The translations under genes and the position numbers were made by a program. A stretch of 64,000 nucleotides of DNA from Tubulanus polymorphus (Eukaryota > Animalia > Nemertea). The DNA lies in contig NC_134026.1 in the NCBI RefSeq assembly GCF_964204645.1, positions 13,514,050-13,578,049 on the forward strand, read 5' to 3'. Under the pieces are notes generated by a model. That model was not told the origin of the DNA. It did not search any database and saw only the letters and a list, made by a program, of their open reading frames with translations. This document shows, one piece after another, positions 335-63,938 of this stretch (within the stretch, counting starts at the first letter, position 1; the number at the start of each line of letters is the position of its first letter).

Positions 335-3300
335 GTGATGAGAAACAACTCCTTCCGAGGAAAGATTATCCTTCAATAAAATGTCCTTGATCAGTGAAGA
401 AGAGACCCATCGAGCCACTGTGTCCCAAGAAACATCACCCTTCAGGTGATCCAGCAGCAGAAATAACCGCTCCTTCAAACCCCTTTGTGAAGCAGAGCGA
501 TCTAAATAGAAACGCAACGCCCATACAGGACATTACTTCCTGTCCGTAAGACCCGGTTCAACTCAATGTTTTAGGGCTTCAATTCGCCATTGACGATCAA
601 CCGAGCCTTTGCCTAAAACTCCAAAGCAGGCAGCAGCAAAGCAAATTCCTTCGCTGGCCCGGAGACAATATGACCTCGTCGAACTGAAAGTGCATGAATT
701 TCAGAACAACGGATCCGAGCAAGCCAAGAAAAGCAGGAATAGTGTCTTTTTGACAAATTCGCAAATGACGCTTCGGAAAGAGATTCAAATGGAGCCTCCA
801 TTAACTTCTTCAAAATTACATGGTGGAACTATTCTCGTTGCCTGAGGCCGGGAAATAGAAAACCCTGCAACAAGCTGGGATATCCGATGATCAGCTATTA
901 TGTTTGGCTGTCCAGAAGTACTCAATGTGTGGGAAATCACGGAGTGGTAACCTTTTATAGATATAACCTGCAGACCTTTTACTACAAATAGATGCAGTAA
1001 ACAAACCGACACACAGAGGGTGAGCATGAATCAATTTCCCCTGTAGCACACCAATCTGCAAAATGACCCCATTTGCAATCGTAAATGGTACTTGTCGATG
1101 GCCGCTTAGATCCTGTGATAAAAGGGGCAGCCTATTCTGAAAAGCCTGAAGATGACAAGGATCGCTGGACAATGGCCAGGCATGCAGATTAAACCACTTG
1201 CTGTTCCAGGATGATGCCGAAAGTTCCCCTCAGACAGAAGTGATGGGAAATTTGGAAGAATCCTGGTGTTGTCGCACAGTAGGTTGAGAAGTGGTAGGAA
1301 CCACTTCTGAGCTGGCCAACATGGTGCTACCAGAACTATGTTGCAATTGAATGATCTCTCAACTTGATCCAGCAGGCGCAGGAGGACTGGTGTGGGCGGG
1401 AACGCATACGCATGCATCCCCGACCAGTCCTGAGAAGGCAACAAGCCTTCAAGCTTCCACGTCCGGAAACGGGTAAACAAACAGTGAACACCTCCGATTG
1501 AACCGTTAGGAAAACAGATCCAGCCGCGGATTGCCAAACATGTCTCGAACCCGATTCGCTACTTCTTGGTGGAGAAACCATTCTGTCACAATAGCCTGAC
1601 CTCAGCGAGAAAGAGCATCGGCCATCAGGTTCCTTTTCCCTGCTTAATGTGCCACAGTCAGGGAAACGCCGGAAATTTATGTGGTTGGTGGCCTCGTAGC
1701 GAGACCACCTCCCCGCTTTGACTTGGTTCTTTAGATGCTCCCCCTACTGTTGGGGACTGGCATCCATGAATATATGAACTGGAGCCTCTAACGGGGCCAG
1801 AGATACCCTGCGACGAAGAATCGTAGTTGTCGCCCACCAATGAAGATCTGGAATTAGAGCGGTTGGAGGTACGGGAATCAAGGTTTCCCAGTCGCCCTTC
1901 GATTGAGACCAGAAGACCTTCCAATATTGTTGCAAGCACCTGTTTCTGAGGCGGCTTAATGGCACCACCAGACCCATGGAGCTGATGGAGCCTAGAAGCC
2001 GTGGCCAGTAACGAGCCGTTCTCGGGGTTGTGGGAACTCCCGCTACAGCTTCAAGAAGTTTGGCTACTCTCCACCCATGGACGGAAAGACTTTGCCGATT
2101 AGGAGATCGAAGTCCATGCCGAGATAAGTGAACTGTTGGGCCGGCGTCAACTGAGATTTTCACCTGTTTACGCGGAACCCTAGCTGATGGACTAAGTCCA
2201 AGACTGAGGTCATTGCCTCCCGACATTCTTGAGCCGAGTTAGCCACTTTTAACCAGTTGTCAGGGTAAACAAACTGTCGAACAGGACTGAAGTAGCTTCT
2301 GAATGGACTTAACCAACTTGGTAAAACCCACGGGGCCGTACTGAGGCCAAATAGAAGACACCTGAACTCGAACTGGCAGCCTTTCCACTTTAACCTGAGA
2401 AATAACCGAGATTTTGGGTGAATTGGAACCTGAAAATAAGCATCTTTCAGGTCCGATGAAGCTGCCATTGACCAGGACAGAGCCCTTAAATCACATCCCT
2501 GGGTTTGTCATCCAGAACCTTGGAATGTCTAGGTGCCGATTGAGGGATGACAGATCTATCACCATCCGTTGACCCCCTGTGGCCTTTGGTACCATGAATA
2601 TTCGAGAAAACCAGCCGGGAGAAGTTTCGTTGCAAACTGGTTCTATCGCTCCCATCTCTGCCAATTCCTTGAGAGCCAGACAGATTAAGGCCTCCTGACC
2701 TGGTTTTGGCCGCATGTCAGAGCTGACCTCATCAGGCGCGGTCGCCTTCGGAAACGGCAGCCCGCTACAAACTCCCACTGGTGCCAAAATTCATTTCGAG
2801 TTTTTCCGAAAGGAAGAGCCCCTTTTTGGAGCCTTGCCCTTGCCCCGATACGAACCGGAACTGATATGACCGGACGAGGCTTGATACGATTGATGGAGCT
2901 GTGCGCTAGTTCTCCAACCGGCATCTGTAGCCGCCTGAGACAGTGCCGAAGTTTGAGTTGGTGCTGTTTGAGTCCTTTCCGGACCAAGAATGCTTTTTCC
3001 ACGGAGTCCGGATGGTGGATTTGGTCTGGACCTCCCGAATCTTCCTCAGCTTGGCGGAAACAACGGAGCCCACCAACTGGAGAAGAGACACGAAGACGTC
3101 CCCAATGGAGCTCTCAGTAATGAATTGGACACTATATCTGGTAGATGAGTTTTGGAACTGGAGTCCTTAACTGACTGACAGGAGGCTTACACAAGATTAG
3201 CCTGACCCCAAACCGACAACGGAATGACACAAAAGATTGATTAATCCGGTCCATTCCCTCTAGTTTTAGGGCAACTGATGAGAGTTTAGCAAAGCTCGCC

Positions 3301-3532
3301 CCCAACACCTTAAGTGCCATATCCTGAAACGAACCAACCATGGTAAGATTCACCAGGATTGACGTCATGGCAACCAAACCGGACTTAGGCAAACGAATAC
3401 CCGACTGTGCTGAACCAGTATTCGCGCTGATCAAAGTATAATCAGCATCCAGGCAGCTATGACTATGATCCACAGTGCCTGGAGTTGCATAATATGCCGA
3501 GCGAAATGCACTTATAGGCAGAACGGTTGAAC
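335..3532 (-). mobile_element. Degenerate, truncated DIRS (tyrosine-recombinase) retrotransposon: gag C-term, RT, RNase H, MT-like and YR fragments
   Basis: Frameshifted ORF pieces with RT motifs (FSRIFMVPKATGG, DLKDAYFQVPI, FGLSTAP), RNase H (IFMDAS), MT-like DWSGMHAYAFPP and YR (RLFLLLDH...DTVARWV). Colinear with the copy at 49746-59342. Confidence 0.92.
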
Positions 3533-4000
3533 GGTTGTGGCTATACGACAAACTAACCACAAGAAGATTTCTGTGTTTCTGCTTCTTTATTGCTGTTTCT
3601 GATGTGTCTAAATTTCGACTTTTGAACTGCTCTAATATACTAAATTCTTATCATTTTATCTTCAAAACCTATTATCACTAATTATATTAAACATTCATCA
3701 TCATGTGAATTCGTCAGAAAGTCTAGATAAAGTGTAGCGCAGGTTTTAAAATGTCATTAGTCTAATCAATGAAAGTTTTACATGTTACACTTGTTCGCTT
3801 CTCAACATTCTCCGCTTCCTGATAATCCTACGGATTATCATGTTTTTAATCTAAAATTTCAGCAATCAATTCAGCTAAAATACAATTATATACATATTTA
3901 TGAAATAAATTCTACACATGTTTTACAAATCTAAAATTCTAGTTACTAATAAACATGTAATTTTAATCCTTTTAAATGAATCAATAATAATCTACAATTG

Positions 4001-4385
4001 CTACTCGGTAGTTTCTATCGGACATAATTTTGCAATTGGTCTAACCAATGTTGTTTTACCAACTTGTAACTTAACTACTCGAACATGCCCGTCTTTCCCT
4101 GGAAAGATCTCTAACACGCGCCCTAAAGGCCATTTACCCCTTGGTGTATCTGACGATATTACTAAAACGACATCCCCGACTTTAAAATCTCGTTTAGTAT
4201 CAGTCCATTTTTTGCGCGAATTCAACTGTGGTAACCATTCTCTCATCCATCTTTGCCAAAAATGTTTCATAAGTTCTTAGACACGTCGCCATCTTCTTCG
4301 TAGACTGAAATCCGTTTCATCTACAGTATCTGGCGCGAACTCACCTCCCATTTGACCGAACAAGAAATGATTTGGTGTCAACGGA
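4001..4385 (-). pseudogene. BEL/Pao integrase C-terminal fragment
   Basis: PLTPNHFLFGQ...FWQRWMREWLPQL...KVGDVVLV...PRGKWPLGRVLEIFPGKDGHVRVVKL...RPIAKLCPIE, with one stop. Cut off exactly at the palindromic element's left end. Confidence 0.9.
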
Positions 4386-4470
4386 AGTAATTAGAAAAGT
4401 AGGCTTTCATACCAGAGGGCGTGAGGGCGAGACACCACTCATCACCACAAGTAATTTTTTTTCCTAATAA

Positions 4471-4617
4471 ATGGGAGACAGTGAGTTCCAACTAGAAAAC
4501 AATAATGTCAATAAAAATCAATATTATTGTCAATATTGTAAAAAATACATCGATAAACCTTACATGGAAAATGTTAGAAATTATATTGATTCACTAGAAA
4601 TAAAAGATACAAATTAA
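4471..4617 (+). CDS. 48-aa ORF with CxxC (YYCQYCKKYID), probable truncated zinc finger
   Basis: Hand translation: MGDSEFQLENNNVNKNQYYCQYCKKYIDKPYMENVRNYIDSLEIKDTN*. TAAATG start; followed by a T-tract. Confidence 0.45.
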   Translation: MGDSEFQLENNNVNKNQYYCQYCKKYIDKPYMENVRNYIDSLEIKDTN

Positions 4618-4693
4618 ATTTTTTTTTGTTGCTTTTTTCCAAAAATAAACACACTTTTTAATATAAAAGCGCTAATAAAATGATAAAATTGTT

Positions 4694-5054
4694 CAATATT
4701 AAAAGTGTGAGTAAAGTGTGAGTAAAATAATTTAGATTTTCAATATTAAAAGTGTGAGTAAAGTGTGAGTAAAATAATAAAATTGTTCAATATTAAAAGT
4801 GTGAGTAAAGTGTGAGTAAAATAATAAAATTGTTCAATATTAAAAGTGTGAGTAAAGTGTGAGTAAAATAATTTAGATTTTCAATATTAAAAGTGTGAGT
4901 AAAGTGTGAGTAAAATAATAAAATTGTTCAATATTAAAAGTGTGAGTAAAGTGTGAGTAAAATAATTGAGATTTTCAATATTAAAAGTGTGAGTAAAGTG
5001 TGAGTAAAATAATTGAGATTTTCAATATTAAAAGTGTGAGTAAAGTGTGAGTAA
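4694..5054 (+). repeat. 47-bp tandem repeat, 8 units (CAATATTAAAAGTGTGAGTAAAGTGTGAGTAAAATAA...)
   Basis: Unit starts at 4694, 4741, 4788, 4835, 4882, 4929, 4976, 5023; internal GTGTGAGTAAA dimer. Confidence 0.95.
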
Positions 5055-5070
5055 TAATTTTGTTATAAAA

Positions 5071-5727
5071 ATGAAGAAAGAAGAACCCAACTTCAAAATC
5101 GAAATCAATGAAACCAATAAATCATTTTCACAGTTTAACATTAGAAATTATATTTCAGCAACAAATTTAGTATATGGAAGACAATATAAAATTGATAATA
5201 TTACTGTAATTAATCAAATATTATTAAATGAAACATATTTAATTACTGAACTAATAGATACTTTAGATAATGGCGCCAAAAATCCTAAAATATTTAATAC
5301 AGTTTTAAATTATAAAGGTAATTTAGATGAAAACATAATAAATATTCTTAAATTTCCTTTTAATGAAAGAGAAAGTGATATAATACTTTCAAAAGGTAAT
5401 GATAGGATAGACTTAAGAATTGAAAAACGACAATTATATTATTGTAATTTTGATAATAAACAAATTATTTATAATGAAAATACATCAAATATTGAAATTC
5501 AATGTGATTTAGAAAACAATAATTCTTTTAAAGATATTGCAATTCAGTGTGATTTAGAAAATAGTAAATCTTTTAAACATATCGCAATTCAATGTGATTT
5601 AGAAAATGAATTCAAAAGATTTAATCCTAATGAAAAAATTCATTGTTATTGCGGAGGTAAATATTCAAAATCACATAAATCAAAGCATTACCAAACAATT
5701 AAACATAAAAACTGGTGTAAAGAGTAA
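5071..5727 (+). CDS. 218-aa protein with three IxIQCDLEN repeats and a C-terminal CxCGGKY..H..H zinc-finger-like motif
   Basis: Open in both arms. First ATG is 5071 (track start 5047 is a GTG inside the repeat). C-term CYCGGKYSKSHKSKHYQTIKH resembles small ZnF motifs of large-DNA-virus/Polinton proteins (recognition from memory). Confidence 0.75.
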   Translation: MKKEEPNFKIEINETNKSFSQFNIRNYISATNLVYGRQYKIDNITVINQILLNETYLITELIDTLDNGAKNPKIFNTVLNYKGNLDENIINILKFPFNERESDIILSKGNDRIDLRIEKRQLYYCNFDNKQIIYNENTSNIEIQCDLENNNSFKDIAIQCDLENSKSFKHIAIQCDLENEFKRFNPNEKIHCYCGGKYSKSHKSKHYQTIKHKNWCKE

Positions 5728-5785
5728 CGATTCTACATTATAATTATTGAATTGAGTTAAATGATTTAAATATCTAATAGACTGC

Positions 5786-6480
5786 TAAAATGATAAATTG
5801 TTTGACAGTTGAAATGATAAATTGTTTGACAGTTAAAATGATAAATTGTTTGACAGTTGAAATGATAAATTGTTTGACAGTTAAAATGATAAATTGTTTG
5901 ACAGTTGAAATGATAAATTGTTTGACAGTTGAAATGATAAATTGTTTGACAGTTGAAATGATAAATATTTTGACAGTTGAAATGATAAATATTTTAACAG
6001 TTGAAATGATAAATTGTTTGACAGTTGAAATGTTAAATTGTTTGACAGTTGAAATGATAAATTGTTTGACAGTTGAAATGATAAATTGTTTGACAGTTGA
6101 AATGATAAATTGTTTGACAGTTGAAATGATAAATTGTTTGACAGTTGAAATGATAAATTGTTTGACAGTTGAAATGATTTGACAGTTGAAATGATAAATT
6201 CTTTGACAGTTGAAATGATAAATTGTTTGACAGTTGAAATGATAAATTGTTCGACTGTTGAAATGATTTGACAGTTGAAATGATAAATTGTTTGACAGTT
6301 GAAATGATAAATTGTTTGACAGTTGAAATGATAAATTGTTTGACAGTTGAAATGATAAATTGTTTGACAGTTGAAATGATTTGACAGTTGAAATAATAAA
6401 TTGTTTGACAGTTGAAATGATAAATTGTTTGACAGTTGAAATGATAAATTGTTTGATAGTTGAAATGATAAATTGTTTAG
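5786..6480 (+). repeat. 24-bp minisatellite (TTGAAATGATAAATTGTTTGACAG), about 29 units
   Basis: Directly visible; occasional shortened units. Confidence 0.95.
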
Positions 6481-6602
6481 CTGTAAATTTAATTGTTATT
6501 TGATTTAATCATTTAAAAGTTTAATATTTTAAAAATGATTTTAAAATATTTAAATAAAAACAAGCAAATGTTTATTAATTTTCTAATTTCTTTCTTAAAT
6601 AA

Positions 6603-6821
6603 ATGGATGGTTTCATTCCAACTGGGAAAAGTGATTTAAAACATTATTTAGTTGCTGGAGGTTTAATTTTAGCTGCGCTTTACTTTTATTATGAAAATAT
6701 TTCAAAAGATTTAATAAATGAAAATAATGAATTAAGCAAGAAATTAAAGAAGTTAAATACTAAAAATGGAAATAATTATAAAAACGGTAATAATCACAAG
6801 AAAGTTGTTGAATCAGATTAA
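6603..6821 (+). CDS. 72-aa small membrane protein (one TM helix plus basic coiled tail)
   Basis: HYLVAGGLILAALYFYY hydrophobic segment; TAAATG start; open in both arms. Confidence 0.6.
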   Translation: MDGFIPTGKSDLKHYLVAGGLILAALYFYYENISKDLINENNELSKKLKKLNTKNGNNYKNGNNHKKVVESD

Positions 6822-6857
6822 ATAGTGAATTAATCTATTAAAATCTTTTCTTATTAA

Positions 6858-7139
6858 ATGAGTGAAAATATATTAAATTTGTTAAATCTTATTTACAGAA
6901 ATCAAGAGAAAATGAAATTAATTATGATGATTTCAGGGTTACTTTCATTTTCAGTTTATAGTTTGAAACAATTGTTTCATTTTTATGATGATTGTAAAAT
7001 AAAATATATTGAATTGAAAAATAATATCAATTACATTTCAGATAGAATGAATAATATTAAAAGATGCGAAATTTGTAGTAAAAAATACAAGACGGAAAAA
7101 GGATTTAGAAATCATAAAATTGGGCATAAATTGGAATGA
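6858..7139 (+). CDS. 93-aa protein with hydrophobic segment and C-terminal C2H2 zinc finger
   Basis: CEICSKKYKTEKGFRNHKIGH = C-x2-C-x12-H-x3-H; TAAATG start; identical protein in the other arm. Confidence 0.75.
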   Translation: MSENILNLLNLIYRNQEKMKLIMMISGLLSFSVYSLKQLFHFYDDCKIKYIELKNNINYISDRMNNIKRCEICSKKYKTEKGFRNHKIGHKLE

Positions 7140-7274
7140 TTAAATAACAAATTAAAGTAAAGAATTTAAAAAAAATCTCATTTATTGTGTGAAATTGACT
7201 AAAATTGAACTAAAATAGACAACTTTGTTAATCTAATGAAAGTTAAGTTATATTTTAGTTGAATTGTAATTAAA

Positions 7275-7563
7275 GTTAGTTGCAACTAACTTCAACTAGA
7301 ATTTAACTAGAATTGACTAAAAATACACTAAATCAACTGTCTTGTTAATCTTTTTAATTTTTTATTCAATTCTAGTTAAATTCTAGTTGAAGTTAGTTGC
7401 AACTAACTTCAACTAGAATTTAACTAGACTGTTAGTTGCAACTAACTTCAACTAGAATTTAACTAGAATTGAATAAAAAATTAAAAAGATTAACAAGACA
7501 GTTGATTTAGTGTATATTTAGTCAATTCTAGTTAAATTCTAGTTGAAGTTAGTTGCAACTAAC
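7275..7563. other. Central nested-palindrome/hairpin junction of the fold-back element
   Basis: Self-complementary 16-mer GTTAGTTGCAACTAAC at 7275, 7392, 7431 and 7548; perfect 58-bp palindrome at 7371-7428. Confidence 0.9.
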
Positions 7564-7698
7564 TTTAATTACAATTCAACTAAAATATAACTTAACTTTC
7601 ATTAGATTAACAAAGTTGTCTATTTTAGTTCAATTTTAGTCAATTTCACACAATAAATGAGATTTTTTTTAAATTCTTTACTTTAATTTGTTATTTAA

Positions 7699-7980
7699 TC
7701 ATTCCAATTTATGCCCAATTTTATGATTTCTAAATCCTTTTTCCGTCTTGTATTTTTTACTACAAATTTCGCATCTTTTAATATTATTCATTCTATCTGA
7801 AATGTAATTGATATTATTTTTCAATTCAATATATTTTATTTTACAATCATCATAAAAATGAAACAATTGTTTCAAACTATAAACTGAAAATGAAAGTAAC
7901 CCTGAAATCATCATAATTAATTTCATTTTCTCTTGATTTCTGTAAATAAGATTTAACAAATTTAATATATTTTCACTCAT
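7699..7980 (-). CDS. 93-aa C2H2 zinc-finger protein (mirror copy)
   Basis: Identical translation to 6858-7139. Confidence 0.75.
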   Translation of the reverse strand: MSENILNLLNLIYRNQEKMKLIMMISGLLSFSVYSLKQLFHFYDDCKIKYIELKNNINYISDRMNNIKRCEICSKKYKTEKGFRNHKIGHKLE

Positions 7981-8016
7981 TTAATAAGAAAAGATTTTAA
8001 TAGATTAATTCACTAT

Positions 8017-8235
8017 TTAATCTGATTCAACAACTTTCTTGTGATTATTACCGTTTTTATAATTATTTCCATTTTTAGTATTTAACTTCTTTAATTTCTT
8101 GCTTAATTTATTATTTTCATTTATTAAATGTTTTGAAATATTTTCATAATAAAAGTAAAGCGCAGCTAAAATTAAACCTCCAGCAACTAAATAATGTTTT
8201 AAATCACTTTTCCCAGTTGGAATGAAACCATCCAT
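8017..8235 (-). CDS. 72-aa small membrane protein (mirror copy)
   Basis: Two amino-acid differences (D>H, E>K) from 6603-6821. Confidence 0.6.
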   Translation of the reverse strand: MDGFIPTGKSDLKHYLVAGGLILAALYFYYENISKHLINENNKLSKKLKKLNTKNGNNYKNGNNHKKVVESD

Positions 8236-8357
8236 TTATTTAAGAAAGAAATTAGAAAATTAATAAACATTTGCTTGTTTTTATTTAAATATTTTAAAAT
8301 CATTTTTAAAATATTAAACTTTTAAATGATTAAATCAAATAACAATTAAATTTACAG

Positions 8358-9800
8358 CTAAACAATTTATTATTTCAACTGTCAAACAATTTATCATTTC
8401 AACTGTCAAACAATTTATCATTTCAACTGTCTAACAATTTATTATTTCAACTGTCTTATCATTTCAACAGTCGAACAATTTATCATTTCAACTGTCAAAC
8501 AATTTATCATTTCAACTGTCAAACAATTTATCATTTCAACTGTCAAACAATTTATCATTTCAACTGTCAAACAATTTATCATTTCAACTGTCAAACAATT
8601 TATCATTTCAACTGTCGAACAATTTATCATTTCAGCTTTCAAACAATTTATCATTTCAACTGTTAAACAATTTATTATTTCAACTGTCAAATCATTTCAA
8701 CAGTCGAACAATTTATCATTTCAACTGTCAAATCATTTCAACAGTCGAACAATTTATCATTTCAACTGTCAAACAATTTATCATTTCAACTGTCAAACAA
8801 TTTATCATTTCAACTGTCAAACAATTTATCATTTCAACTGTCAAACAATTTATCATTTCAACTGTCAAAGAATTTATCATTTCAACTGTCAAAGAATTTA
8901 TCATTTCAACTGTCAAACAATTTATTATTTCAACTGTCTTATCATTTCAACTGTTAAAATATTTATCATTTCAACTGTCAAAATATTTATCATTTCAACC
9001 GCCAAACAATTTATCATTTCAACTGTCAAACAATTTATCATTTCAACAGTCGAACAATTTATCATTTCAACTGTCAAACAATTTATCATTTCAACTGTCA
9101 AACAATTTATCATTTCAACTGTCAAACAATTTATCATTTCAACTGTCGAACAATTTATCATTTCAGCTTTCAAACAATTTATCATTTCAACTGTTAAACA
9201 ATTTATTATTTCAACTGTCAAATCATTTCAACAGTCGAACAATTTATCATTTCAACTGTCAAACAATTTATCATTTCAACTGTCAAATCATTTCAACAGT
9301 CAAAGAATTTATCATTTCAACTGTCAAACAATTTATCATTTCAACTGTTAAACAATTTATCATTTCAACTGTCAAACAATTTATCATTTCAACTGTCAAA
9401 CAATTTATCATTTCAACTGTCAAACAATTTATCATTTCAGCTTTCAAACAATTTATCATTTCAACTGTTAAACAATTTATCATTTCAACTGTCAAACAAT
9501 TTATCATTTCAACTGTCAAACAATTTATCATTTCAACTGTCAAACAATTTATCATTTCAACTGTCAAACAATTTATCATTTCAACTGTCAAACAATTTAT
9601 CATTTCAACTGTCAAACAATTTATCATTTCAACTGTCAAACATTTTATCTTTTCAACAGTCGAACAATTTATCATTTCAACTGTCAAACAATTTATCATT
9701 TCAACTGTCAAATCATTTCAACAGTCAAAGAATTTATCATTTCAACTGTCAAACAATTTATCATTTTAACAGCCAAACAATTTATTACTTCAACAGTCTA
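8358..9800 (-). repeat. 24-bp minisatellite, about 60 units (mirror array, expanded)
   Basis: Reverse complement of the 5786-6480 unit; roughly twice as long, with higher-order duplicated blocks. Confidence 0.95.
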
Positions 9801-9871
9801 TTAGATATTTAAATCATTTAACTAAATTCAATAATTATTTGACTATTTAATTTATTTTCAATGTAGAATTG

Positions 9872-10528
9872 TTACTCTTTACACCAGTTTTTATGTTTAA
9901 TTGTTTGGTAATGTTTTGATTTATGTGATTTTGAATATTTACCTCCGCAATAACAATGAATTTTTTCATTAGGATTAAATCTTTTGAATTCATTTTCTAA
10001 ATCACATTGAATTGCGATATGTTTAAAAGATTTACTATTTTCTAAATCACCCTGAATTGCAATATCTTTAAAAGAATTATTGTTTTCTAAATCACATTGA
10101 ATTTCAATATTTGATGTATTTTCATTATAAATAATTTGTTTATTATCAAAATTACAATAATATAATTGTCGTTTTTCAATTCTTAAGTCTATCCTATCAT
10201 TACCTTTTGAAAGTATTATATCACTTTCTCTTTCATTAAAAGGAAATTTAAGAATATTTATTATGTTTTCATCTAAATTACCTTTATAATTTAAAACTGT
10301 ATTAAATATTTTAGGATTTTTGGCGCCATTATCTAAAGTATCTATTAGTTCAGTAATTAAATATGTTTCATTTAATAATATTTGATTAATTACAGTAATA
10401 TTATCAATTTTATATTGTCTTCCATATACTAAATTTGTTGCTGAAATATAATTTCTAATGTTAAACTGTGAAAATGATTTATTGGTTTCATTGATTTCGA
10501 TTTTGAAGTTGGGTTCTTCTTTCTTCAT
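9872..10528 (-). CDS. 218-aa IQCD-repeat / zinc-finger protein (mirror copy)
   Basis: One amino-acid change (IQCD>IQGD) relative to 5071-5727. Confidence 0.75.
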   Translation of the reverse strand: MKKEEPNFKIEINETNKSFSQFNIRNYISATNLVYGRQYKIDNITVINQILLNETYLITELIDTLDNGAKNPKIFNTVLNYKGNLDENIINILKFPFNERESDIILSKGNDRIDLRIEKRQLYYCNFDNKQIIYNENTSNIEIQCDLENNNSFKDIAIQGDLENSKSFKHIAIQCDLENEFKRFNPNEKIHCYCGGKYSKSHKSKHYQTIKHKNWCKE

Positions 10529-10544
10529 TTTTATAACAAAATTA

Positions 10545-10813
10545 TTACTCACACTTTACTCACACTTTTAATATTGAAAATCTCAATTATTTTACTCACA
10601 CTTTACTCACACTTTTAATATTAAACAATTTTATCATTTTACTCACACTTTACTCACACTTTTAATATTGAAAATCTCAATTATTTTACTCACACTTTAC
10701 TCACACTTTTAATATTAAACAATTTTATCATTTTACTCACACTTTACTCACACTTTTAATATTGAAAATCTAAATTATTTTACTCACACTTTACTCACAC
10801 TTTTAATATTGAA
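10545..10813 (-). repeat. 47-bp tandem repeat, 6 units (mirror array)
   Basis: Reverse complement of 4694-5054, two fewer units. Confidence 0.95.
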
Positions 10814-10925
10814 CAATTTTATCATTTTATTAGCGCTTTTATATTAAAAAGTGTGTTTATTTTTGGAAAAAAGCAAAAAAAAAATTTAATTTGTATCTTT
10901 TATTTCTAGTGAATCAATATAATTT

Positions 10926-11042
10926 CTAACATTTTTCATGTCGTGATTTTTGGTATTTATCGATGTATTTTTTACAATATTGACAATAATATTGATTTTT
11001 ATTGACATTATTGTTTTCTAGTTGGAACACACTGTCTCCCAT
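10926..11042 (-). CDS. 38-aa ORF, zinc-finger-like (mirror variant of 4471-4617)
   Basis: MGDSVFQLENNNVNKNQYYCQYCKKYIDKYQKSRHEKC*; an indel changes the C-terminus relative to the left arm. Confidence 0.4.
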   Translation of the reverse strand: MGDSVFQLENNNVNKNQYYCQYCKKYIDKYQKSRHEKC

Positions 11043-11127
11043 TTATTAGGAAAAAAAATTACTTGTGGTGATGAGTGGTGTCTCGCCCTCACGCCCTCTG
11101 GTATGAAAGCCTACTTTTCTAATTACT

Positions 11128-12760
11128 ATCAGCTCCGTTTCAGGGCTACAGATAGGTCTAGGGAAGATACTTGATACACCAAGTATCGAGTTGTTTGAAA
11201 AATACCTTTATTCCGACAAACATACAGATGAATGGAGAGACAAAATGTGAACACAATAGCCAGTTGCGACTCATCTCCGAAGCTAAAAATGATCAATCTT
11301 TTGGGTAAAAGCCATCGACTTTGACATCCCTGATCAATGATGAGCAAAAATTTAGTTTTTGAGGGGTATTGAGTGCAACAGCCCCAGGAAATGAAGGTAA
11401 TGTTGCTTTCCATAGTTCAGAATTGAGGAACTGGATCCAACGGTTAAACTAACGCTTAGACTTAAAATACAAATAGAAACTAAAATACATAAAGAAAGAA
11501 AAACTTACGTCACAACAATTATTGGTAGGTGCACTAGAGGACTTCACACATATTACTACACGGACACATGCCACTAGTCTCAGGAACAGTTCCCACATGC
11601 TTACTGCCCAGGGTTGAGGAAATCTCAGTATGCGCTAATAACTTTCCATCATCCTCATCATCATCATCATCATCCAAACTATTACTTCCAGTCACCCCAA
11701 AACTCTCAGTTTCACTAATAGAAACAGGAAGTTGCATGGCATTTGTGCAGACCGCATAACTATTTTGATTTCTTTTTTTAAGGGTGTCAGTAACTGACTC
11801 ATCAAAGTGTGAGTTTCTTTGTATGTTGATAATTTCAGGAACGCATTGTATGTCAAGCGAACCATTCGTAGTGATTGTCAATTGAAAGTTGTCAATTGTA
11901 GCTTCATCATCATCTGATTCAGATTCTGAAGATGAATTATGGCGTCTGCGTCGATAAATATGCTGAAATGCCTTGATGACTCCTTCAGCACGTACAACAT
12001 TTTTAGCTAATGCACTGAATGAACGGACTCCTCCAGTGATCCCACTACATCTATTTTGATCATGTCTAATGCTCCAAAGCACATCAGGAATCAAGTGTTC
12101 TTCATTTTCAAATTGAGCATTTTCGTGTATATTAAGAGCTTCCCCGTCAATTGTTTCTTCACCATTTATAGAAATTATCCGTTTACGGTTGTCACAAGAA
12201 TTAATGCGATCAATAACAACACCATTTGCTTTACCTGCTCCTTGTTTCATCTTGAAATGCAGATATATGGGCTAGATAGATAAAAAAAATAAAAAAAGAA
12301 GTTTAGCATGACATTTATAAGATTGTGATCATACCATCCAGTGTTTTATCAATGTGCTGAAAGATTTTCACAATTCTTACATGACCGCTTACACATTTTC
12401 ACAATTCTTTGCAAATACCCTGGCATTAAAAAACAATTTTCAAGTGATTCCTATGTGCAAGACATATTGTTCAGAATTAAATGCAGTCTCAATTTAATGA
12501 GATTTGGCATCTACCTAATACAAGCCGCTTGGAATATTGCAAGGAATTCTAGCCACATACACACAGGCAACAGGAATCTTGCCATCCATAGCTTTAAATT
12601 TTCTGGATCAATTGTGTGCACAGACTGGTCTATAACTTCCTGATTTTTCCTGTTTCTTAAAGGTATGCAATCAGACCGGCCAAGTGCAACCATAAATTTT
12701 CCAGAAAATGTGGGATTTGAATGGTGGATGATTATAGATTTAAAGTCAACATTCAACACT
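11128..12760 (-). pseudogene. Unidentified coding-like region (238-aa acidic/Ser-rich ORF 11534-12250 plus stop-interrupted frames either side)
   Basis: Long ORF with natural-looking composition. Flanking frames (e.g. NSELWKATLPSFPGAVAL.., MDGKIPVACVYVARIP..) contain stops. Family not recognised. Confidence 0.35.
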
Positions 12761-17182: not shown

Positions 17183-19472
17183 CCTGGCACTGCACTGCAC
17201 AACGGGCCCGACTGTTTTGATGATGTGCCACCTTTGTATTATAGTATATAAGTCAGTATTCTAAAAAACAATGGACCCTTCATTTCGACACTTACAAAGT
17301 ATGCTAGAGCAGATATTTCTATTATGAATTCCGCACAAAACTAAATGCACATACCTAATTCATGTACATCCAAATGGCGACATCTTCCTGTGGAAGCCAC
17401 CTTGAACCGAAGAACGCAAAAATAGGGCCATGCTCTGTGATTCTTTTTTTTTAAACTTGAGAAATATCATTTTTGAAAATACGAATTGTCACCGTCTGGA
17501 CTGATGTCTGATTAATGAAATAAAGATGTTGTGAAATTATTTCGTGGCTTACAGGGAGCAAATAAAGGTTTCTAATTTCATGTACATAAGTATAGGATCA
17601 TGCTACTTTCTAGGGTGACATGATTTTCGTCTGATATTAATAGCTAATAAACTGTGAGTCAATTGATGATACAACATGGTTGTTCTTGGTGTACTTATAT
17701 ACCGCGTTGCATAATATTATGTGTTTCTATTCAAAAGAGGCCACTCTCCATTCTTTACTGCCTATATCAATGCGGACATATCATTATGCGATTGCTTAAC
17801 CCCCTCCCATGTACCACATAACTAACAAACAAAAATGCAATAAAATAACTTTTAGGACCATTAAATCAAAAATCTGAATTCAATTGAGTTTCAATTTGAA
17901 TTAAATATGTAACAGTAATGGCATGACGCCATAGACATCAACCAATGCTAGAAATAGTGTGGTAATAATGATAATAACAATCAAGTGAATCAAGAGGGTT
18001 TTCGGTGAACAAACAAAAAACCCTTATGATAATAATCCACAAAGTAACAAAAGGGTTTCTGTGAAAGCTTTCACAGAAACCCTAATTATAATCACAAGAA
18101 TATCAATAGGGTTATGTGAAGTAACAACTCAACTTACTTTATGATCACCCATGCAGGTAGTCGGTCCTATCATGTTGTAGACAGCTTCCGATTGCTAGAA
18201 AAATATGTGAAATAAAACTTTAGTGGAGGTGATTTTCTGTGATAGTAGACATTATTATATCACATTGAATATACCATCGAAGGTACTATGCTGGAAAACT
18301 ACATAAATCTAGTTGAGACCAAAAAGAGAAACAAGAGGCCCATAGGCATTGAAGCAGTAGATTATACCGTGGTATGGTTAATGTGTTACATGGTTTATGT
18401 TACTGTTTACGATGGTCAATATTTTACATCTACCCACAGATGTACACATAATGAGTGCTAGACATGTAAAGGGCAAATGCCATCAAAATTGTGCTTTCCG
18501 CGATTTCTAAACCAGAAGAAACTTTAGTATATACATAACGACCTGAGATGTGACTTATTGAAAAAAGGAGCACGAATTAGCCGTAATCATTAGCGGAATA
18601 GTCATTTATTTATCCTTCACTCTGTGCGTCTAGTTCATATTCAACCCACGGGTGGTGCCATTTATGATGTTAACTATAATCAACACCAGCACGTGAGTGC
18701 GCTAATATGCGTAGCCTATGTATAATCGATAAAATAAACATATTTGTTCATTTGTGAATACATCACATTTTAAAATGAATTTTACACAATATTCTATTTT
18801 GAAGGTCAATTTGTGTTAATGTAGGATTCTCATTCACACTAACAATGAATTTCATTTTTCGATCCTAAACTAATTGTATTTTTTTTTCATCCTAGGTTAA
18901 TTGTATAACTGCACACCAGTCACTTCAAGATTAAACCCTTAGAACATGTCTTATTGGCAAACCAGCTAACAATCAGCATACAGTATTTCTAACCACAACA
19001 CAATATCTTTTTGGCATGTTGGATTGATGCCAACAACTGACCTTCTGTTCTATCATCCTATCGTAATCGTAATCATAATCCCAATCGAACATTTATTCCA
19101 AAGATGTTGCTTAATCTTAACATTACTTCAGTTGTATTTTTGCCATTATGTAATGTGGATCCAGAGACAAAAATATGCGATATAAACTGACTTTTTCAAT
19201 ACGAAAGTAAAAAAATGCGATGTCTAGACATGTGTACTAGGAAATCGACAAATTCAAGTTCTGAAATTAGTCGTTTGATGGCATTAGTCAGAACCGGAAA
19301 TTGGAGCATAAATCCGCCATGTTCTAGTTCATTTGCAATAAAAACTCGCAATTCAAGGTTTTAGTTAACGATATTTTACTTACTATACTCTGTCACGCGT
19401 AATCCTTTAAGTATGATATCCTGACAATGTGTTGGATTCGATCAAACACAACTTTAAATGCTAGAGATTACT

Positions 19473-20880
19473 AACTAAGGGTCGAGGGACACCATGCCCA
19501 CTTACAAAATATGCCTACAAAATATGCATACTAATATTAAATGGAAATACTAAGTTATCCTACTATTCAACACCCCCTGGTGACCATATGCAAAAAGCAA
19601 ATACCTTGAAACTTACTACAATCATAGAACATGTTATGAGCTACAAGTTTGCAATTGGTTGTGGTAACAATATATGCCTAGGTACCACTATAACATGGAA
19701 ATACTAAGTTATAGTACTATTCAACACCCCCTGGTGACCATATACAAACACCAATGACCTTGAAACTCAGCACAATCATAGAACATGTCATGAGTTAAAA
19801 TTTTTCTCATGCTGATAGGCACTTGGAGGATACAAATATGTGAACGATCAAGGTAATTGATTAAAGCATCTTCAAAATTTCCATTTAAAACTTCAAAATG
19901 TGTTAAGTGCTGATTATGCAAACAAAATTGGCTGCCAGTCAGCCATCTTGATTTTAACAGGGCCAATTTTTGGGCCGAAGATATGTCTAGGGTAGATACA
20001 TGTATAAACCAAATATCAAGACATTACCCTGCAGCGTCTTCTAAACTTCACAAAATAACTGGATGAGAACGGACGGACGGACGACGACTGATAATCACTC
20101 TAACCCATCAGCTCCGCTGACTTTCGTCCACAGCGGAGCTGAAAATGGCTCCGTAACTGTATAGGCCTTGGTCCATAGAACATTCATACCAAATTTGGAA
20201 TTGATCTGATTAAAACTGTAGGACTAGTGTCAATTTGAAGAAATAAAAACTCCACCCCCAGGGGTGCCCCTTGGGGGACGAATCCAAGAAATTGCTCTGT
20301 AACGAAAGAACGAACTACAATGACCTCACCCCCTAACCCATCAGCTCAGCTGACCTTCGGTCACAGCGGAGCTAAAAATGTCAAAGTAATAATTTTCTGT
20401 TGAAATGCAGCTCATGAAAATTACAGATCAAATCAAATTAGGAAACGCAAACTATCCCAGAACTAGGGGTCCAGGGACACCATGCCCACTTGGAAAGTGG
20501 TTTCAAATGCTCAACAATCCAACAGTATCAATGTTCAACGCCCCCTGGTGACCATATTCATAAAGCAATGACCTTGAAACTAACCACATTCATAGAACAT
20601 GTCAGCAGCAGCTTTTGTAATCGATTGTGATAACAAAATATGCCTCGTTACCAATTTAATATGGAAATACTAAGTTATTCTACTATTCAACGCCCCCTGG
20701 TGACCATATTCAAAACCCAATGTCCTTGAAACTCACAAAAATCGTTAAACATGTCATGAGCTACAACTTTGCAATTGGTCATGGTAACAAAATATGCCTA
20801 GGTACCAAGATAATAAGGAAATACTAAGTTATTCTACTATTCAATGCCCCCTAGTGACCATATAGAATAACTTATGTCCT
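19473..20880 (-). mobile_element. Cluster of HINE-like (Helentron-associated) non-autonomous elements
   Basis: AACTAGGGGTCCAGGGACACCATGCCCACT ends, 154-bp cores, (GGAC)n microsatellite, terminal stem-loops at about 20108-20144 and 20341-20377. Confidence 0.75.
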
Positions 20881-26175: not shown

Positions 26176-27755
26176 TGTTATTACGAATGTGACTGAGCTG
26201 TCCAGTGAACTGTATATTTCCGAATTCAATACTATTAGTTATTCACGGTCTGTGACCGTCATATTCGCTGCATATAAATATCTGTGTATTAATAAATTGT
26301 GTGGCATTTTGTAAGATCAAACTGATTGTTGTACCGAGTTCTTGTTCTCTGGTCGTCTCTATCATCTAATACTACATTTTGGTGCCGTGACGCAGCGAAA
26401 TTCCGGAAAATGCCACCCAAGGAAGGAGATCCAGAGAGCCAGACGGTGTGCAAACAAGGGTGTAGTAACAAAACAAGTAGAAAGATTCGACCTCAGCTCA
26501 AGTAGCGAACCTAACGTGCTGGAATTGGAATCTGCGAAATCGTTGAGTCGGAAGATTGCTGTTATTCATGATTTGGTTCTACAAATATTAGAGCTGGTGG
26601 ATGAAACCGCATTGGAAGAGACAGTGAATGAGTTCCACTCATATCTGGAAGAGCTTGAGAAAAAGAAATTTTTGATTGGTAAGTCCATTCAAAAGTATGC
26701 TACACAATTTCACGAAAATGGAAAATTTAAAACAAAAATGCAACATAGTAGTCGTTTGCGGAAACTTGACTTGCCTCAATTCTCCGGTAAAATATTAGAC
26801 TTTCGGCCCTTTTGGGATAGTTTTAAAGCCGCAATACACGATGATATACATCTAAGTGATGTTCAGAAGTTTACCTATAGGAGAGCGCAACTCGAGGGTG
26901 AGGCTATGCGGGCTATTGCTGGACTCTCGTTGACGTCTGATTATTATACAGCTGCCTAGAAATACTAAATAAGCGTTTCGCTCAGGATTCAAAAGTTGTG
27001 AATGCCTACATGGCTATCAGCTCAGCTGCCAAATTTTTATTTCGATACTGTTGATTGTGCAAATAATTCTTTCGTAAATGTCAGTTTGATCGAATACTTG
27101 TTACTGTATACATAAGGCTATGGATATTGATAGCTTTAATTCTTTGAAGATGAATTGCCTGTTGAGAGTGAAGGTTCGTTTATACAGATTTGTAAAACAC
27201 GAATTTGCAGAGAATCAATGGGTGTTCGGTATTCAGAGTGAAGGGTTTGGTGATATTATTCATTTCTTACGTTCCAATTCGAAGCCACGACCAGTTTTGG
27301 TAAGACAGTTGAAACTTTTTTTGTCTGATGGCTTCCTTCGTTGCGGGGGGAGAATACAGAATGCTAGGCTTCCAGTGAAAATGAAGTACCCAACCCTGTT
27401 GCCGAGAACCCATCGATTCACGTTTTTGTATCTTCGTTATGCCCATTGTATTAAGGTAATGCATGAAGGTGTTAATGAAACAATAGCATTTGTTCGATAG
27501 AAATATTGGGTACCACAATTTCGTCCTCGTATTACCTCTTTGATACACCTCTTTGATACTCTTTGATGTGCCTTGTATTAAGGCTGGCACTGGTAAACCA
27601 TTCACGCTACCCGATCAGGCTCCATCACCCTTTTCAGTAGTTGGTTTTGATTATACAGGCGCTTTAATGGTAAGAACTGAATCATCTGATGCAAAGGTTT
27701 ATATCTGTCTTATTACATGCGCTATTACTAGAGCATTACATTTAGAACTTGTAAG
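26176..27755 (+). mobile_element. Internally deleted BEL/Pao element (5' LTR about 26176-26376, tRNA-His PBS, gag, integrase fragment)
   Basis: TG..CA LTR candidate; TGGTGCCGTGAC at 26380; LRKLDLPQFSGKILDFRPFWDSFKAAIH (DUF1759-like); LRCGGRIQNA, GFDYTGAL, TRALHLELV. Confidence 0.85.
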
Positions 27756-28532
27756 AGTCTTGCAAGGGGAAAATTGTGATTTTGATAATCTTAATCTAAG
27801 TAATCCCATATCATAAAGAAAGTGATATTCATGTCATAAATCGTCATAAAAGTGTTTTTCTAATCTGAAATCAATATACTAGCCACTATCATCAGTTTTT
27901 AAAAAATGACGCATGCGCATTGACGACGAATGAAACGCAAATAGCGCTGAGTTGCCCGCACACGGGAGCACAGTTGGCGCTGCGTAAAAATAAATTGCCC
28001 ATGGGCAAAGTGTCGTTTACCTTGAAAGCTAGAGGTTGTTTGGAGTAAGGGCATTGCTTGAAAAATCTGTTCAATTCGTGACTTCAAAGTTCCACAAGTT
28101 TACATTGTACTTTATCTTTCTTAAAGAATTATTTTGAGGTCAAATAAGACCAAAGATACATTTGGTTACGGTCCACGTCCAAAATTTTGTAGGGTACAGG
28201 TAGGCGTGGCAGGGAAATTATTTCATATTTTCCAAAAAAATATGTTTCACAATATGAAAAAAATATTCAAATAAGGCCATCCCAAAATAATTGTCTGTTT
28301 GCCGTAACACAGACTCAACTTTTCAACTTTTCAGGATGAGTTGGTAGGTAAGAAAAAATTTTTTTTGCTAAATTTTTGGGCAAAAAAAAACAAATATATC
28401 ACCTTTTTACATGGAAACAATATCACAAAAATCATTTACGTTGTGAAAGGGAAATTTGTCTAATAGCGTAGATTTCGAGAATTATTCTAAAATTATAACT
28501 TCGTCCAGAGCGATCAATGTATTAATAGATTT

Positions 28533-29063
28533 TTGAAATCAAAACAGAACTCAGAACCTCAACCGAAACCTGTTGAAGATGGAATTGATCTATTCATTTC
28601 ATTACCGTATATTGGTAACCCGTCAATCCTATTTGCCCGAAAATTAAAATATCTATTTAAAAGGAATTTTGAAATCAACTTGAAATGTGCATTCACTACG
28701 ACCAAAATTAAGAATTTTTTCTCTTTGAAATGTGCTACCCCTAAATCGCTGAAGGCTAAAGTCATATATAAATTTAATTGTTTATGTGATATAAACACTT
28801 CCTATATTGGGAAAACTAAACGACATTTGGCCATCAGGATTAAGGAACACAGATCAAAGACTTCTGCGATTGGACAACATCTCGCAATTTGTCACACTTG
28901 TGATCAGGAATTCAGTAACAACAAATTCAAAATTCTAGACAAAGGATCATCTGATCTCGACTGTAAAATTAGGGAGGCCCTGTTTATTAAAGCGCAACGA
29001 CCCTCTTTAAATCAACAATTATTTCAAAACGGCTCATCCTTTATCCTAAATGTATTCAAATAA
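28533..29063 (+). pseudogene. 5'-truncated Penelope ORF: thumb/linker plus GIY-YIG endonuclease
   Basis: Same protein sequence as the C-terminus of 32268-33896. Confidence 0.9.
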
Positions 29064-29176
29064 TTAGTTTGTTATTAAATACTTGGTTGGTAATTAGCTT
29101 AGAATTTAGCACTTGTAATTTTGTAACTTATGTTGTATATAAACCTGTAGTTTAATCATTTGATTCACTTGTATTT

Positions 29177-29213
29177 CACCTGATGAGGGGATATGATCCC
29201 GAAAACGTTCGTG
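29177..29213 (+). ncRNA. Minimal type I hammerhead ribozyme
   Basis: CAC-CTGATGA-G-GGGAT(ATG)ATCCC-GAAA-ACGT-TC-GTG: catalytic core, stem II, palindromic stem III (AACGTT), stem I CAC/GTG. Confidence 0.85.
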
Positions 29214-29241
29214 TTAATAAACTGTATTTACTCATTAGAAA

Positions 29242-31255: not shown

Positions 31256-31368
31256 TTAGTTTGTTATTAAATACTTGGTTGGTAATTAGCTTAGAATTTA
31301 GCACTTGTAATTTTGTAACTTATGTTGTATATAAACCTGTAGTTTAATCATTTGATTCACTTGTATTT

Positions 31369-31405
31369 CACCTGATGAGGGGATATGATCCCGAAAACGT
31401 TCGTG
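31369..31405 (+). ncRNA. Minimal type I hammerhead ribozyme (copy 2)
   Basis: Identical to 29177-29213. Confidence 0.85.
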
Positions 31406-31433
31406 TTAATAAACTGTATTTACTCATTAGAAA

Positions 31434-33896: not shown

Positions 33897-34009
33897 TTAG
33901 TTTGTAATTAAATACTTGGTTTGTAATTAGCTTAGAATTTAGCACTTGTAATTTTGTAACTTATGTTGTATATAAACCTGTAGTTTAATCATTTGATTCA
34001 CTTGTATTT

Positions 34010-48538: not shown

Positions 48539-48849
48539 TCTTGAGTCCAATCGACCCAATTTTTCTTATGGGCCCTTTGGGGATTCAAATATGTACGAAA
48601 AATCAAGGTAATTGATATAAGCGTCTTCAAAATTTCCCTCAAAACGTTCAAAAATGTGTAAAAAGTGCTGATTTGGGCGAACAACGGTGGCTGCCAGTCG
48701 GCCATCTTGAATCTGACCGGGCCAGTTTCTAGGCTGAAGATGTGTCTAGGGTAGATACACGTATGAACCAAATATCAAGACATTACCTTGAAGCGTCTTC
48801 AAAACTTCCCAAAATAACTGGATTCCTAAAGTCCCAATTGGGCTAAAAA
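48538..48849 (-). mobile_element. HINE-like fragment
   Basis: Matches 38535-38890. Confidence 0.8.
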
Positions 48850-51690: not shown

Positions 51691-51695
51691 TTGAG

Positions 51696-53488: not shown

Positions 53489-54062
53489 CCGAAGCCGCCT
53501 GAGAAAGCGCTGAAGTTTGAGATGGTCCTGTTTGCGTCCGTGCCGAACCTTGCACCGCCGGCGTCAGACCAGAACGCTTTTTCCACGGAGTTCGGGGGTT
53601 GGACTTGGCCTGAACCTCCCGAATCTTCCTCAGCTCTGCGGAATCCGGAGCGCACCAACCGGAGAAGAGACGTGAAGACGTCCCCAATGGGGCTCTCAGC
53701 AAAGCATTGGACACCATATCCGGTAGAGTTTTGGACCTGGAGTCCATCACTGACTGACGGGAGGCTAACACAAGATTAGCCAGACCCCGAACCGACAACG
53801 GAATTACATGCGAAACAGACCGAGCCAAAGATTGGATAATCCGGTCCATTCCCTCCAGTTTTAGGGCAACTGACTCTGGGTTGGAGCCCGCATGAATGGC
53901 GGCGTGAGTCTCGCGAAGCTCACCCGTCAACACCTTAAGTGCCATATCTTGAAACGAACCAACCCTGGTAAGATTGTCCAGGATTGACGTCATGGCCACC
54001 AAACCGGACTTAGGCAAACGAATACCCGACTGTGCTGTAACAGTATCCGGGCTGATCAAAGT

Positions 54063-63910: not shown

Positions 63911-63938
63911 TGTCAACAGATGGCGTGCCGGTCGGAAA

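What the first reader, a model, noticed from the sequence alone, without database searches (positions are those of the whole stretch)
7275..7563. Centre looks like a hairpin-telomere / concatemer-resolution junction
Seen: four copies of the self-complementary GTTAGTTGCAACTAAC, a perfect 58-bp palindrome (7371-7428), a 37-bp direct duplication (7392-7428 = 7431-7467) that offsets the axis, and a local inverted pair within each arm (7275-7314 versus 7366-7407) able to form branched hairpins. Known: parvovirus, poxvirus and protelomerase replicons produce such head-to-head junctions. Inference: either a programmed hairpin end/resolution site or the self-priming point where a polymerase folded back.
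Basis: partly seen in the sequence, partly recalled or inferred. Interest (0 to 1): 0.7.

Follow-up and report, generated by a model that had tools for sequence, protein, structure and literature searches.

The report
Scarred centre of a foldback transposon
This hairpin-rich stretch is the middle of a 6.7-kb mirror-image repeat element of a multi-copy family, likely a helper-dependent offshoot of virus-like Polinton transposons in an animal genome that likely arose by DNA folding back at a short palindrome, and its off-centre duplication is likely a one-off repair scar and not a viral telomere.

Summary
All four sequence claims are confirmed. The motif cluster is the centre of a 6,742-bp inverted repeat (4386-11127). 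Both ends stop at the same AGTAAT terminus, without a target-site duplication, in transposon-rich, probably animal DNA. The arms differ by 0.3-1.7% and in tandem-array length, which argues against a read artefact. Each arm carries three small ORFs (two with zinc fingers) and ends in two ~117-bp direct repeats, each with a 58-bp palindrome around the 16-mer. The junction splits into 29 templated, 2 untemplated and 8 templated bases, as expected if hairpin ends were opened and rejoined. In one independent run the family is multi-copy, its cover ends just past the second palindrome, and this junction is absent. No polymerase, integrase, Rep, resolvase or protelomerase gene was found, and no flip/flop pair. 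Best reading: a fold-back (snap-back-like) non-autonomous Polinton derivative with a copy-specific repair scar. A programmed hairpin end stays possible but has little support. The helper element was not seen. This scan noted similar palindromic Polinton-ended elements before on other DNA.

The parts
4386..11127 (.). Whole element: 6,742-bp giant inverted repeat, 22.6% GC against 39.2% for the rest of the window; no target-site duplication
4386..4685 (+). Left terminus (begins AGTAAT, 5 of 6 to the (AGT)2 Maverick end motif) and outer arm
4676..5054 (+). 47-bp tandem array, 8.1 copies
5071..5727 (+). ORF218: 45-bp in-frame repeats and a C-terminal CxCG..H..H zinc-finger-like motif shared with GIY-YIG-type proteins; function unknown
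5788..6478 (+). 24-bp tandem array, 29.7 copies
6603..6821 (+). ORF72 with a hydrophobic stretch; no homologue found
6858..7139 (+). ORF93: hydrophobic stretch and a C2H2 zinc finger (below Pfam cut-offs)
7194..7311 (+). Repeat R1, ending in an imperfect 58-bp palindrome (7254-7311, 48 of 58) around the 16-mer at 7275
7312..7428 (+). Repeat R2, ending in the perfect 58-bp palindrome 7371-7428 (axis 7399|7400); ACTA/TAGT words 10-11 bp apart
7273..7409 (.). Local inverted pair 7273-7316 / 7366-7409 (44 bp perfect) around a 49-nt loop
7400..7438 (.). Junction: 29 nt templated past the left axis, 2 untemplated bases, 8 nt templated before the right axis; leaves a 23-nt unpaired centre 7408-7430
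7431..8358 (-). Right inner arm: mirror of 6480-7407 (925 of 928 identical), with ORF93 (7699-7980) and ORF72 (8017-8235)
8360..9798 (-). 24-bp tandem array, 62 copies
9872..10528 (-). Mirror copy of ORF218 (655 of 657 identical)
10545..10829 (-). 47-bp tandem array, 6.1 copies
10820..11127 (-). Right outer arm and terminus; similarity to the left arm stops exactly at 11127
4001..4385 (-). Left flank (host DNA): Pao/BEL retrotransposon tail (DUF5641), cut off at the element end and not continued on the right flank

Best explanation
The region is the centre of a 6.7-kb palindromic element of a multi-copy family, likely a non-autonomous Polinton/Maverick derivative that likely arose when a copying strand folded back at the 16-bp palindrome of repeat R2, and the 39 extra bases are likely a later repair scar private to this copy. 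Steps: (1) shown: both ends are one and the same terminus, the arms mirror each other, and R1/R2 carry palindromes and helically spaced words. (2) Inferred: a strand copied from one end of a parent element paired with itself at the palindrome, primed its own copy-back and gave a molecule with two identical ends. (3) Inferred: two good ends would let a helper's protein-primed polymerase and integrase copy and insert it, giving many copies with the same centre. (4) Inferred from the 29+2+8 split: a near-perfect centre extruded as a cruciform, was cut into two hairpin ends, opened off-tip on each side and end-joined, which left a stabilising 23-nt spacer. (5) Inferred: the missing target duplication reflects a later exchange between copies or an adjacent deletion.
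For: Homology ends at the same base on both sides, between unrelated flanks. The end is 5 of 6 to (AGT)2 (PMC8097293 section 7). The arms differ by 3 of 928, 2 of 657 and 5 of 298 aligned bases and by array length. The family is multi-copy in X1: 270 contigs laid, depth mostly 450-28,000 against a median 35 for 11 long single-variant contigs. In one search depth is 447-2644 up to 7409, 216 at 7410-7419, 38 at 7420-7429 and 0 at 7430-7470; the 32 junction-specific 31-mers span 7399-7460, and no joint for them is listed. Both junction flanks are exact palindromic extensions and the two middle bases are untemplated. This matches cruciform cutting, hairpin opening and end-joining as reviewed in PMC7999016 (passages). 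The ORF218 tail matches 20 or so zinc-finger proteins at E 1e-8 to 9e-4; the nearest Atlas clusters are viral GIY-YIG proteins, two of the top three mostly Preplasmiviricota (score 0.89, a lead only). AAV snapback genomes show this geometry in another virus (PMC8235507 passages).
Against: No autonomous Polinton with this end was seen; no genome is held. There is no 6-bp target duplication at any boundary shift from -6 to +6. The end motif is one base off. No full-length homologue of any ORF was found. X1 is one run of one study, its family differs from the window copy (for example every listed contig differs at 7245, 610.6 of 610.6 depth), and it is contigs only. So absence of the junction may reflect another individual or dropped rare variants, and summed depth is no copy number. 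A 29-base palindromic extension is longer than usual hairpin-opening overhangs (recalled); slippage during fold-back could give the same junction.
Confidence: 0.52

Rival explanations
1. Programmed hairpin end: the monomer is a ~3-kb helper-dependent linear replicon with one protein-primed end and one hairpin end at R2. The integrated form is its head-to-head replicative dimer, and R1/R2 with their spaced words are a dedicated nicking or resolution site.
For: The centre seems shared among family copies. R1/R2 are an old duplication (alignment score 57, 0 of 5000 shuffles reach it) whose palindrome halves stay 100% matched. ACTA/TAGT words are ten times denser than in control arm DNA and 10-11 bp apart. 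Tandem arrays inside inverted ends recall poxvirus ends (PMC8956199 passages).
Against: No flip/flop pair and no strand-change joint listed. No Rep, resolvase or protelomerase family hit. The junction is asymmetric, has untemplated bases and was not seen in X1. The recalled poxvirus resolution consensus is absent.
Confidence: 0.17
2. Foldback-type cut-and-paste transposon (FB/Galileo/TU style, names recalled) with giant, tandem-repeat-filled inverted repeats kept alike by gene conversion; no Polinton link.
For: Giant arms with internal tandem arrays of unequal length; arm identity is higher in the inner arm and ORF218 than in the outer 300 bp; multi-copy family.
Against: AGT...ACT ends and small intronless zinc-finger ORFs with virus-type relatives. 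Foldback arms are usually non-coding (recalled). No transposase was found in the window.
Confidence: 0.13
3. Chromosomal rearrangement joint: two copies at different loci each broke at their palindromic centre and were cross-joined, as in PATRR translocations, so the two arms come from different insertions.
For: It explains three things at once: no target duplication, unrelated flanks with the Pao frame not continued, and unequal arrays and indels between arms. The 29+2+8 joint fits. PATRR precedent in PMC7999016 (passages).
Against: The inner arms are 925 of 928 identical and share variants that most X1 contigs lack, which favours one source copy. Ordinary recombination between arms removes target duplications more simply. 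This reading still needs the palindromic family of the main explanation.
Confidence: 0.12
4. Fold-back chimera made in library preparation or assembly.
For: The exact junction is not in X1 contigs; no raw reads of this sample could be laid.
Against: A chimera would mirror on into flanking DNA and copy array lengths. Here the mirror stops at the element end, the arrays differ (29.7 against 62 and 8.1 against 6.1 copies), and there are point and indel differences.
Confidence: 0.05

Closest known systems
Polinton/Maverick elements (PMC8097293, passages and section 7; PMC11296320, passages)
   Same: Inverted ends starting AGT; small intronless ORFs, as in accessory regions; zinc-finger tail with relatives in Preplasmiviricota clusters.
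   Different: No pPolB, integrase, ATPase or capsid. The arms (3.0 and 3.7 kb) make up the whole element, against TIRs of 46-1,447 bp. The end is AGTAAT, not (AGT)2. No 6-bp target duplication in this copy.
AAV snapback genomes (PMC8235507, passages)
   Same: Self-complementary molecule made of one end region and its mirror image, with a symmetric or slightly asymmetric centre; helper-dependent.
   Different: Here it is integrated and amplified in a host genome, has no parvoviral ITR or rep/cap gene, and the centre seems fixed across copies.
Poxvirus concatemer junction and flip/flop telomere (PMC8956199, passages)
   Same: AT-rich head-to-head junction able to form a cruciform; tandem arrays within the inverted arms.
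   Different: No flip/flop pair seen, recalled resolution consensus absent, no A22-type resolvase, outer ends are transposon-like, and the whole unit is 6.7 kb.
Centre-break palindrome revision and PATRR breakage (PMC7999016 and PMC3300023, passages; Cunningham 2003 seen only as a reference entry)
   Same: AT-rich palindrome whose centre holds palindromic extensions plus untemplated bases that leave a spacer.
   Different: Described for host or transgene palindromes; here it is inferred from one junction in a mobile element.
Protelomerase (N15 telRL-type) sites and baculovirus hr repeats (recalled, not looked up)
   Same: A palindrome of 50-60 bp; tandem units each holding an imperfect palindrome.
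   Different: No telomere resolvase gene and probably a eukaryotic chromosome; no baculovirus-like genes.

Membership tests
Polinton/Maverick (autonomous) | Protein-primed PolB and rve integrase genes | tested here: not met
   No such Pfam hit in the three arm ORFs or in 38 of 41 long window ORFs scanned
Polinton/Maverick (autonomous) | Terminal inverted repeats | tested here: met
Polinton/Maverick (autonomous) | (AGT)2 or (AG)3 end motif | tested here: inconclusive
   AGTAAT, 5 of 6
Polinton/Maverick (autonomous) | 6-bp target-site duplication | tested here: not met
   No duplication of 3-10 bp at boundary shifts -6 to +6; only this copy could be tested
Non-autonomous Polinton derivative | Autonomous helper with the same terminus in the same genome | not testable with these tools
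   No genome held; the 13 viral-contig matches to the terminal 18-mer are unrelated
Poxvirus hairpin telomere / concatemer junction | Flip and flop isomers of the centre | tested here: inconclusive
   Neither junction form listed among 39 contigs of X1; contigs drop rare variants
Poxvirus hairpin telomere / concatemer junction | Concatemer resolution sequence beside the hairpin | tested here: not met
   0 matches to the consensus (recalled from memory, from no call) in 7150-7690, both strands
Poxvirus hairpin telomere / concatemer junction | Viral Holliday-junction resolvase and poxvirus genes | tested here: not met
Parvovirus/densovirus termini | Rep/NS1 and capsid genes between hairpin ends | tested here: not met
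Protelomerase replicon | Telomere resolvase gene next to a palindromic target | tested here: not met
   no match of the 23-mer centre word in GTDB genomes or of 6480-7470 in phage records
Snap-back defective genome (works-like) | One end region plus its reverse complement | tested here: met
Snap-back defective genome (works-like) | Parent genome that continues beyond the fold-back point | tested here: inconclusive
   Only low-depth diverged contigs leave the region (records 5-8); no parent seen
Centre-break revision scar | Palindromic extensions on both sides with or without untemplated bases | tested here: met
   29 + 2 + 8
Centre-break revision scar | Sister copies with an unscarred axis at the same site | tested here: inconclusive
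   Residual depth at 7410-7419 fits some copies with a perfect palindrome, but 31-mer graphs cannot tell R1-type from R2-type palindromes

The most novel reading that the evidence does not exclude
A family of helper-dependent replicons with one protein-primed Polinton-type end and one programmed hairpin end, built from an iteron-and-palindrome origin (R1/R2). They would integrate as head-to-head dimers and so join protein-primed and hairpin replication in one animal mobile element.
Probability: 0.17. Interest if true: 0.8.

Novelty: new variant of a known kind. Interest (0 to 1): 0.42.

Why it matters
If the main reading holds, animal Polintons spawn integrated, amplified snap-back satellites, as AAV makes defective genomes, and this centre shows both where the fold-back likely happens (a repeat-and-palindrome array) and how the host likely stabilises the result. 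Such elements would be breakage hot spots like human PATRRs. If the centre is a programmed hairpin end, it would be a new replication strategy and a handle on the untested question of how Polintons replicate. The 37-bp duplication itself is probably ordinary DNA repair.

Tried and rejected
Protein homologue searches for ORF218, ORF93 and ORF72 found nothing (near-length proteins only). Viral-contig scans with ORF218 and ORF72 found no relative. The metagenome scan gave 1 weak hit of 263 stretches (L043, 41% over 39 residues of a hydrophobic stretch, gut metagenome; taken as chance, not examined further). The 16-mer in IMG/VR: 29 stretches, unrelated contexts. The terminal 18-mer: 13 stretches, none similar beyond the word. 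The 23-mer centre word in GTDB: 0. Phage records: no match. Rfam: 0. NCBIfam: nothing above cut-off. Bacterial promoter scan at chance level, 6 against 4.2 +/- 2.2. AlphaFold of ORF218 without alignment: pLDDT 36.6, no fold search done. The zinc-finger alignment was too variable for a locus scan. No RNA holder listed. X2 and X3 are shallow, with no cover at 7194-7329 or beyond 7431. I considered the 49-nt loop (7317-7365) as the family's normal centre: its depth is not half the arm depth (633 against 452), a weak hint against. Three of the 24 representative hits (P0002, P0006, P0012) match only repeats or low-complexity stretches and were set aside. A 9-base match of the junction to the right arm near 9794 looks like chance by my rough estimate and was not used.

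Full report
Observation. Every sequence claim checks out: four copies of the self-complementary 16-mer (7275, 7392, 7431, 7548), the perfect 58-bp palindrome 7371-7428, and the 37-bp duplication 7392-7428 = 7431-7467 with two bases between. The local inverted pair is 44 bp, 7273-7316 with 7366-7409. The region folds 37 standard deviations better than shuffles.

Context. The cluster is the centre of an inverted repeat from 4386 to 11127. It is 22.6% GC against 39.2% for the rest of the window. The window holds Pao/BEL pieces, reverse transcriptases, a GIY-YIG ORF beside an RT, and 141-154-bp repeats, so I infer an animal chromosome. No genome is held. From the end inward each arm has a terminus beginning AGTAAT, a 47-bp array, ORF218, a 24-bp array, ORF72, ORF93, R1 and R2. 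All three ORFs point to the centre. The mirror stops at the same base on both sides. The left flank is a Pao frame that the right flank does not continue, and no target duplication was found.

Is it real? The arms differ by 3 of 928 bases (inner), 2 of 657 (ORF218) and 5 of 298 aligned bases plus 12 gap positions (outer). They also differ by a 21-bp indel and in array length (29.7 against 62 and 8.1 against 6.1 copies). A read chimera would not stop at the element end or change array lengths. Three public runs of one study hold the family. In X1, 270 contigs were laid on 6480-7470 at depths mostly 450-28,000, against a median of 35 for 11 long single-variant contigs. The tool warns that summed depth is no copy number, so I take only 'multi-copy' from it.

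Anatomy of the centre. 7194-7311 (R1) and 7312-7428 (R2) are a diverged direct duplication: their first halves align at score 57, reached by 0 of 5000 shuffles. Each ends in a 58-bp palindrome around the 16-mer, imperfect in R1 (48 of 58; its flanks match 16 of 21, reached by 8 of 20,000 shuffles) and perfect in R2. ACTA/TAGT words recur 10-11 bp apart and are ten times denser than in control arm DNA. This looks like a protein-binding array (inference). The junction splits exactly: 29 bases templated past the left axis (7399|7400), 2 untemplated bases, and 8 bases templated before the right axis (7438|7439). The sum, 39, is the period found by TRF.

Other copies. Laid on 7200-7470, X1 gave 39 contigs (8 pieces and 6 of 8 loose ends shown). 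Depth is 447-2644 up to 7409, 216 at 7410-7419, 38 at 7420-7429 and 0 beyond. The 32 31-mers unique to this junction span 7399-7460, and no joint for it was listed. The depth of 60 and 24 beyond 7431 is likely repeat contigs placed at their other site. No listed loose end is high-depth. One contig of depth 37 carries a near-perfect palindrome followed by letters that equal window 7312-7323, so R-unit variants exist. So the family's cover ends at the second palindrome and the 39-bp junction was not seen. Limits: one run, probably another individual (all listed depth at 7245 differs from the window), contigs only, and exits with a 30-base overlap may be missed. A 31-mer graph cannot tell a perfect fold-back from other paths through the repeats.

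Proteins. No full-length homologue was found. Of 24 representative hits to ORF218, most match only its last 30-45 residues, a CxCG..H..H motif, and several are GIY-YIG-type proteins by eye. The ten looked up are unnamed or 'hypothetical'. The Atlas's nearest clusters are viral GIY-YIG proteins, two of the top three mostly Preplasmiviricota, at 0.89, a lead only. ORF93 has a sub-threshold C2H2 finger. No polymerase, rve integrase, ATPase, capsid, Rep, resolvase or protelomerase family was hit. That covers the three arm ORFs and 38 of the 41 stop-to-stop ORFs of 115 aa or more (33, 5). The three left out were a mirror, a duplicate and an opposite-strand frame; array-derived frames were excluded beforehand.

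Mechanism. Most likely (0.52) a strand copied from one end of a Polinton-like parent paired with itself at the R2 palindrome and copied back, giving two identical ends. A helper's enzymes would then amplify it. Later, in this copy, the centre was likely cut as a cruciform, opened off-tip on both sides and end-joined, leaving a 23-nt spacer. The architecture and the 29+2+8 split are shown. The parent, the helper and the repair route are inferred. Rivals: programmed hairpin end (0.17), foldback transposon of another superfamily (0.13), cross-join of two copies (0.12), artefact (0.05).

Comparison with what is known. Mavericks have (AGT)2 or (AG)3 ends, 6-bp duplications, TIRs of 46-1,447 bp and core genes (PMC8097293: passages and section 7; PMC11296320: passages; PMC6431247: passages). 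This element fails the gene and duplication tests, so it is not filed as a Polinton, only as a likely derivative. It works like AAV snapback genomes (PMC8235507: passages). Poxvirus junctions need flip/flop forms, a resolution site and a resolvase (PMC8956199: passages); none was found, and the resolution consensus I tested is recalled. Cruciform cutting, Artemis opening and end-joining are from PMC7999016 (passages); centre-break revision is named in PMC3300023 (passages). Kapitonov and Jurka 2006 and Cunningham 2003 were not held and are recalled only. FB/Galileo/TU elements, telRL and baculovirus hrs are recalled. No supplements were read.

Novelty. Six literature searches (seen as listings, three of the listed papers opened for passages) showed no paper on giant palindromic non-autonomous Polintons. 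The library lacks most subscription journals and repeat databases. This scan has noted similar elements on other DNA, among them a 5.6-kb 'foldback mini-Polinton' with a zinc-finger gene on each arm. These are unchecked notes and not support; no look-alike sequence was found among them. I held the Polinton-derivative reading before seeing them and took the 'foldback' wording from one.

Verdict. Real, a new variant of a known kind. The repeat-and-palindrome array that seems to fix the centre is worth follow-up. The off-axis duplication is probably a repair scar. Interest 0.42.

Noticed in passing
window 28491-33929: Penelope-like arrangement: RT ORFs (30031-31107, 32223-33893), a GIY-YIG ORF (28491-29060) and three near-identical 300-bp direct repeats.
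   Followed up: no
window 785-3560 and 50296-54128: Two 90-95% identical copies of a GC-rich RT-bearing element with overlapping ORFs, possibly DIRS-like.
   Followed up: no
window 26315-26959 and 35489-37672: Pao/BEL pieces (DUF1759, Peptidase_A17, RT).
   Followed up: no
window 4380-4385 and 11134-11139: The same 6-mer lies directly outside the left end and, inverted, 6 bases outside the right end; not a target duplication, perhaps chance.
   Followed up: partly
window 6582-6750 (run X1): Depth peaks at 27,853 over the start of ORF72, far above the centre, so this piece is probably shared by a larger set of subfamilies; some contigs leave at 6700 and 6758, the latter into an A-rich run.
   Followed up: no
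window 11537-12271 (-) and 57422-59047 (-): ORFs of 245 and 542 aa with no Pfam or NCBIfam hit.
   Followed up: partly
L012 5001-5089: A 126-kb viral contig has three copies of the same 16-mer 36-37 bases apart; L008/L009/L016 hold three dispersed copies on one contig. Possibly operator arrays, unrelated to this element.
   Followed up: no
window 19548-20863, 37639-38815, 48568-49814, 60055-62338: Dispersed 141-154-bp repeat families in short tandem arrays.
   Followed up: no
window 18052-18083: Isolated perfect 32-bp palindrome.
   Followed up: no
window 63649-63924: Degenerate 20-bp repeat array with a 105-bp higher-order period.
   Followed up: no
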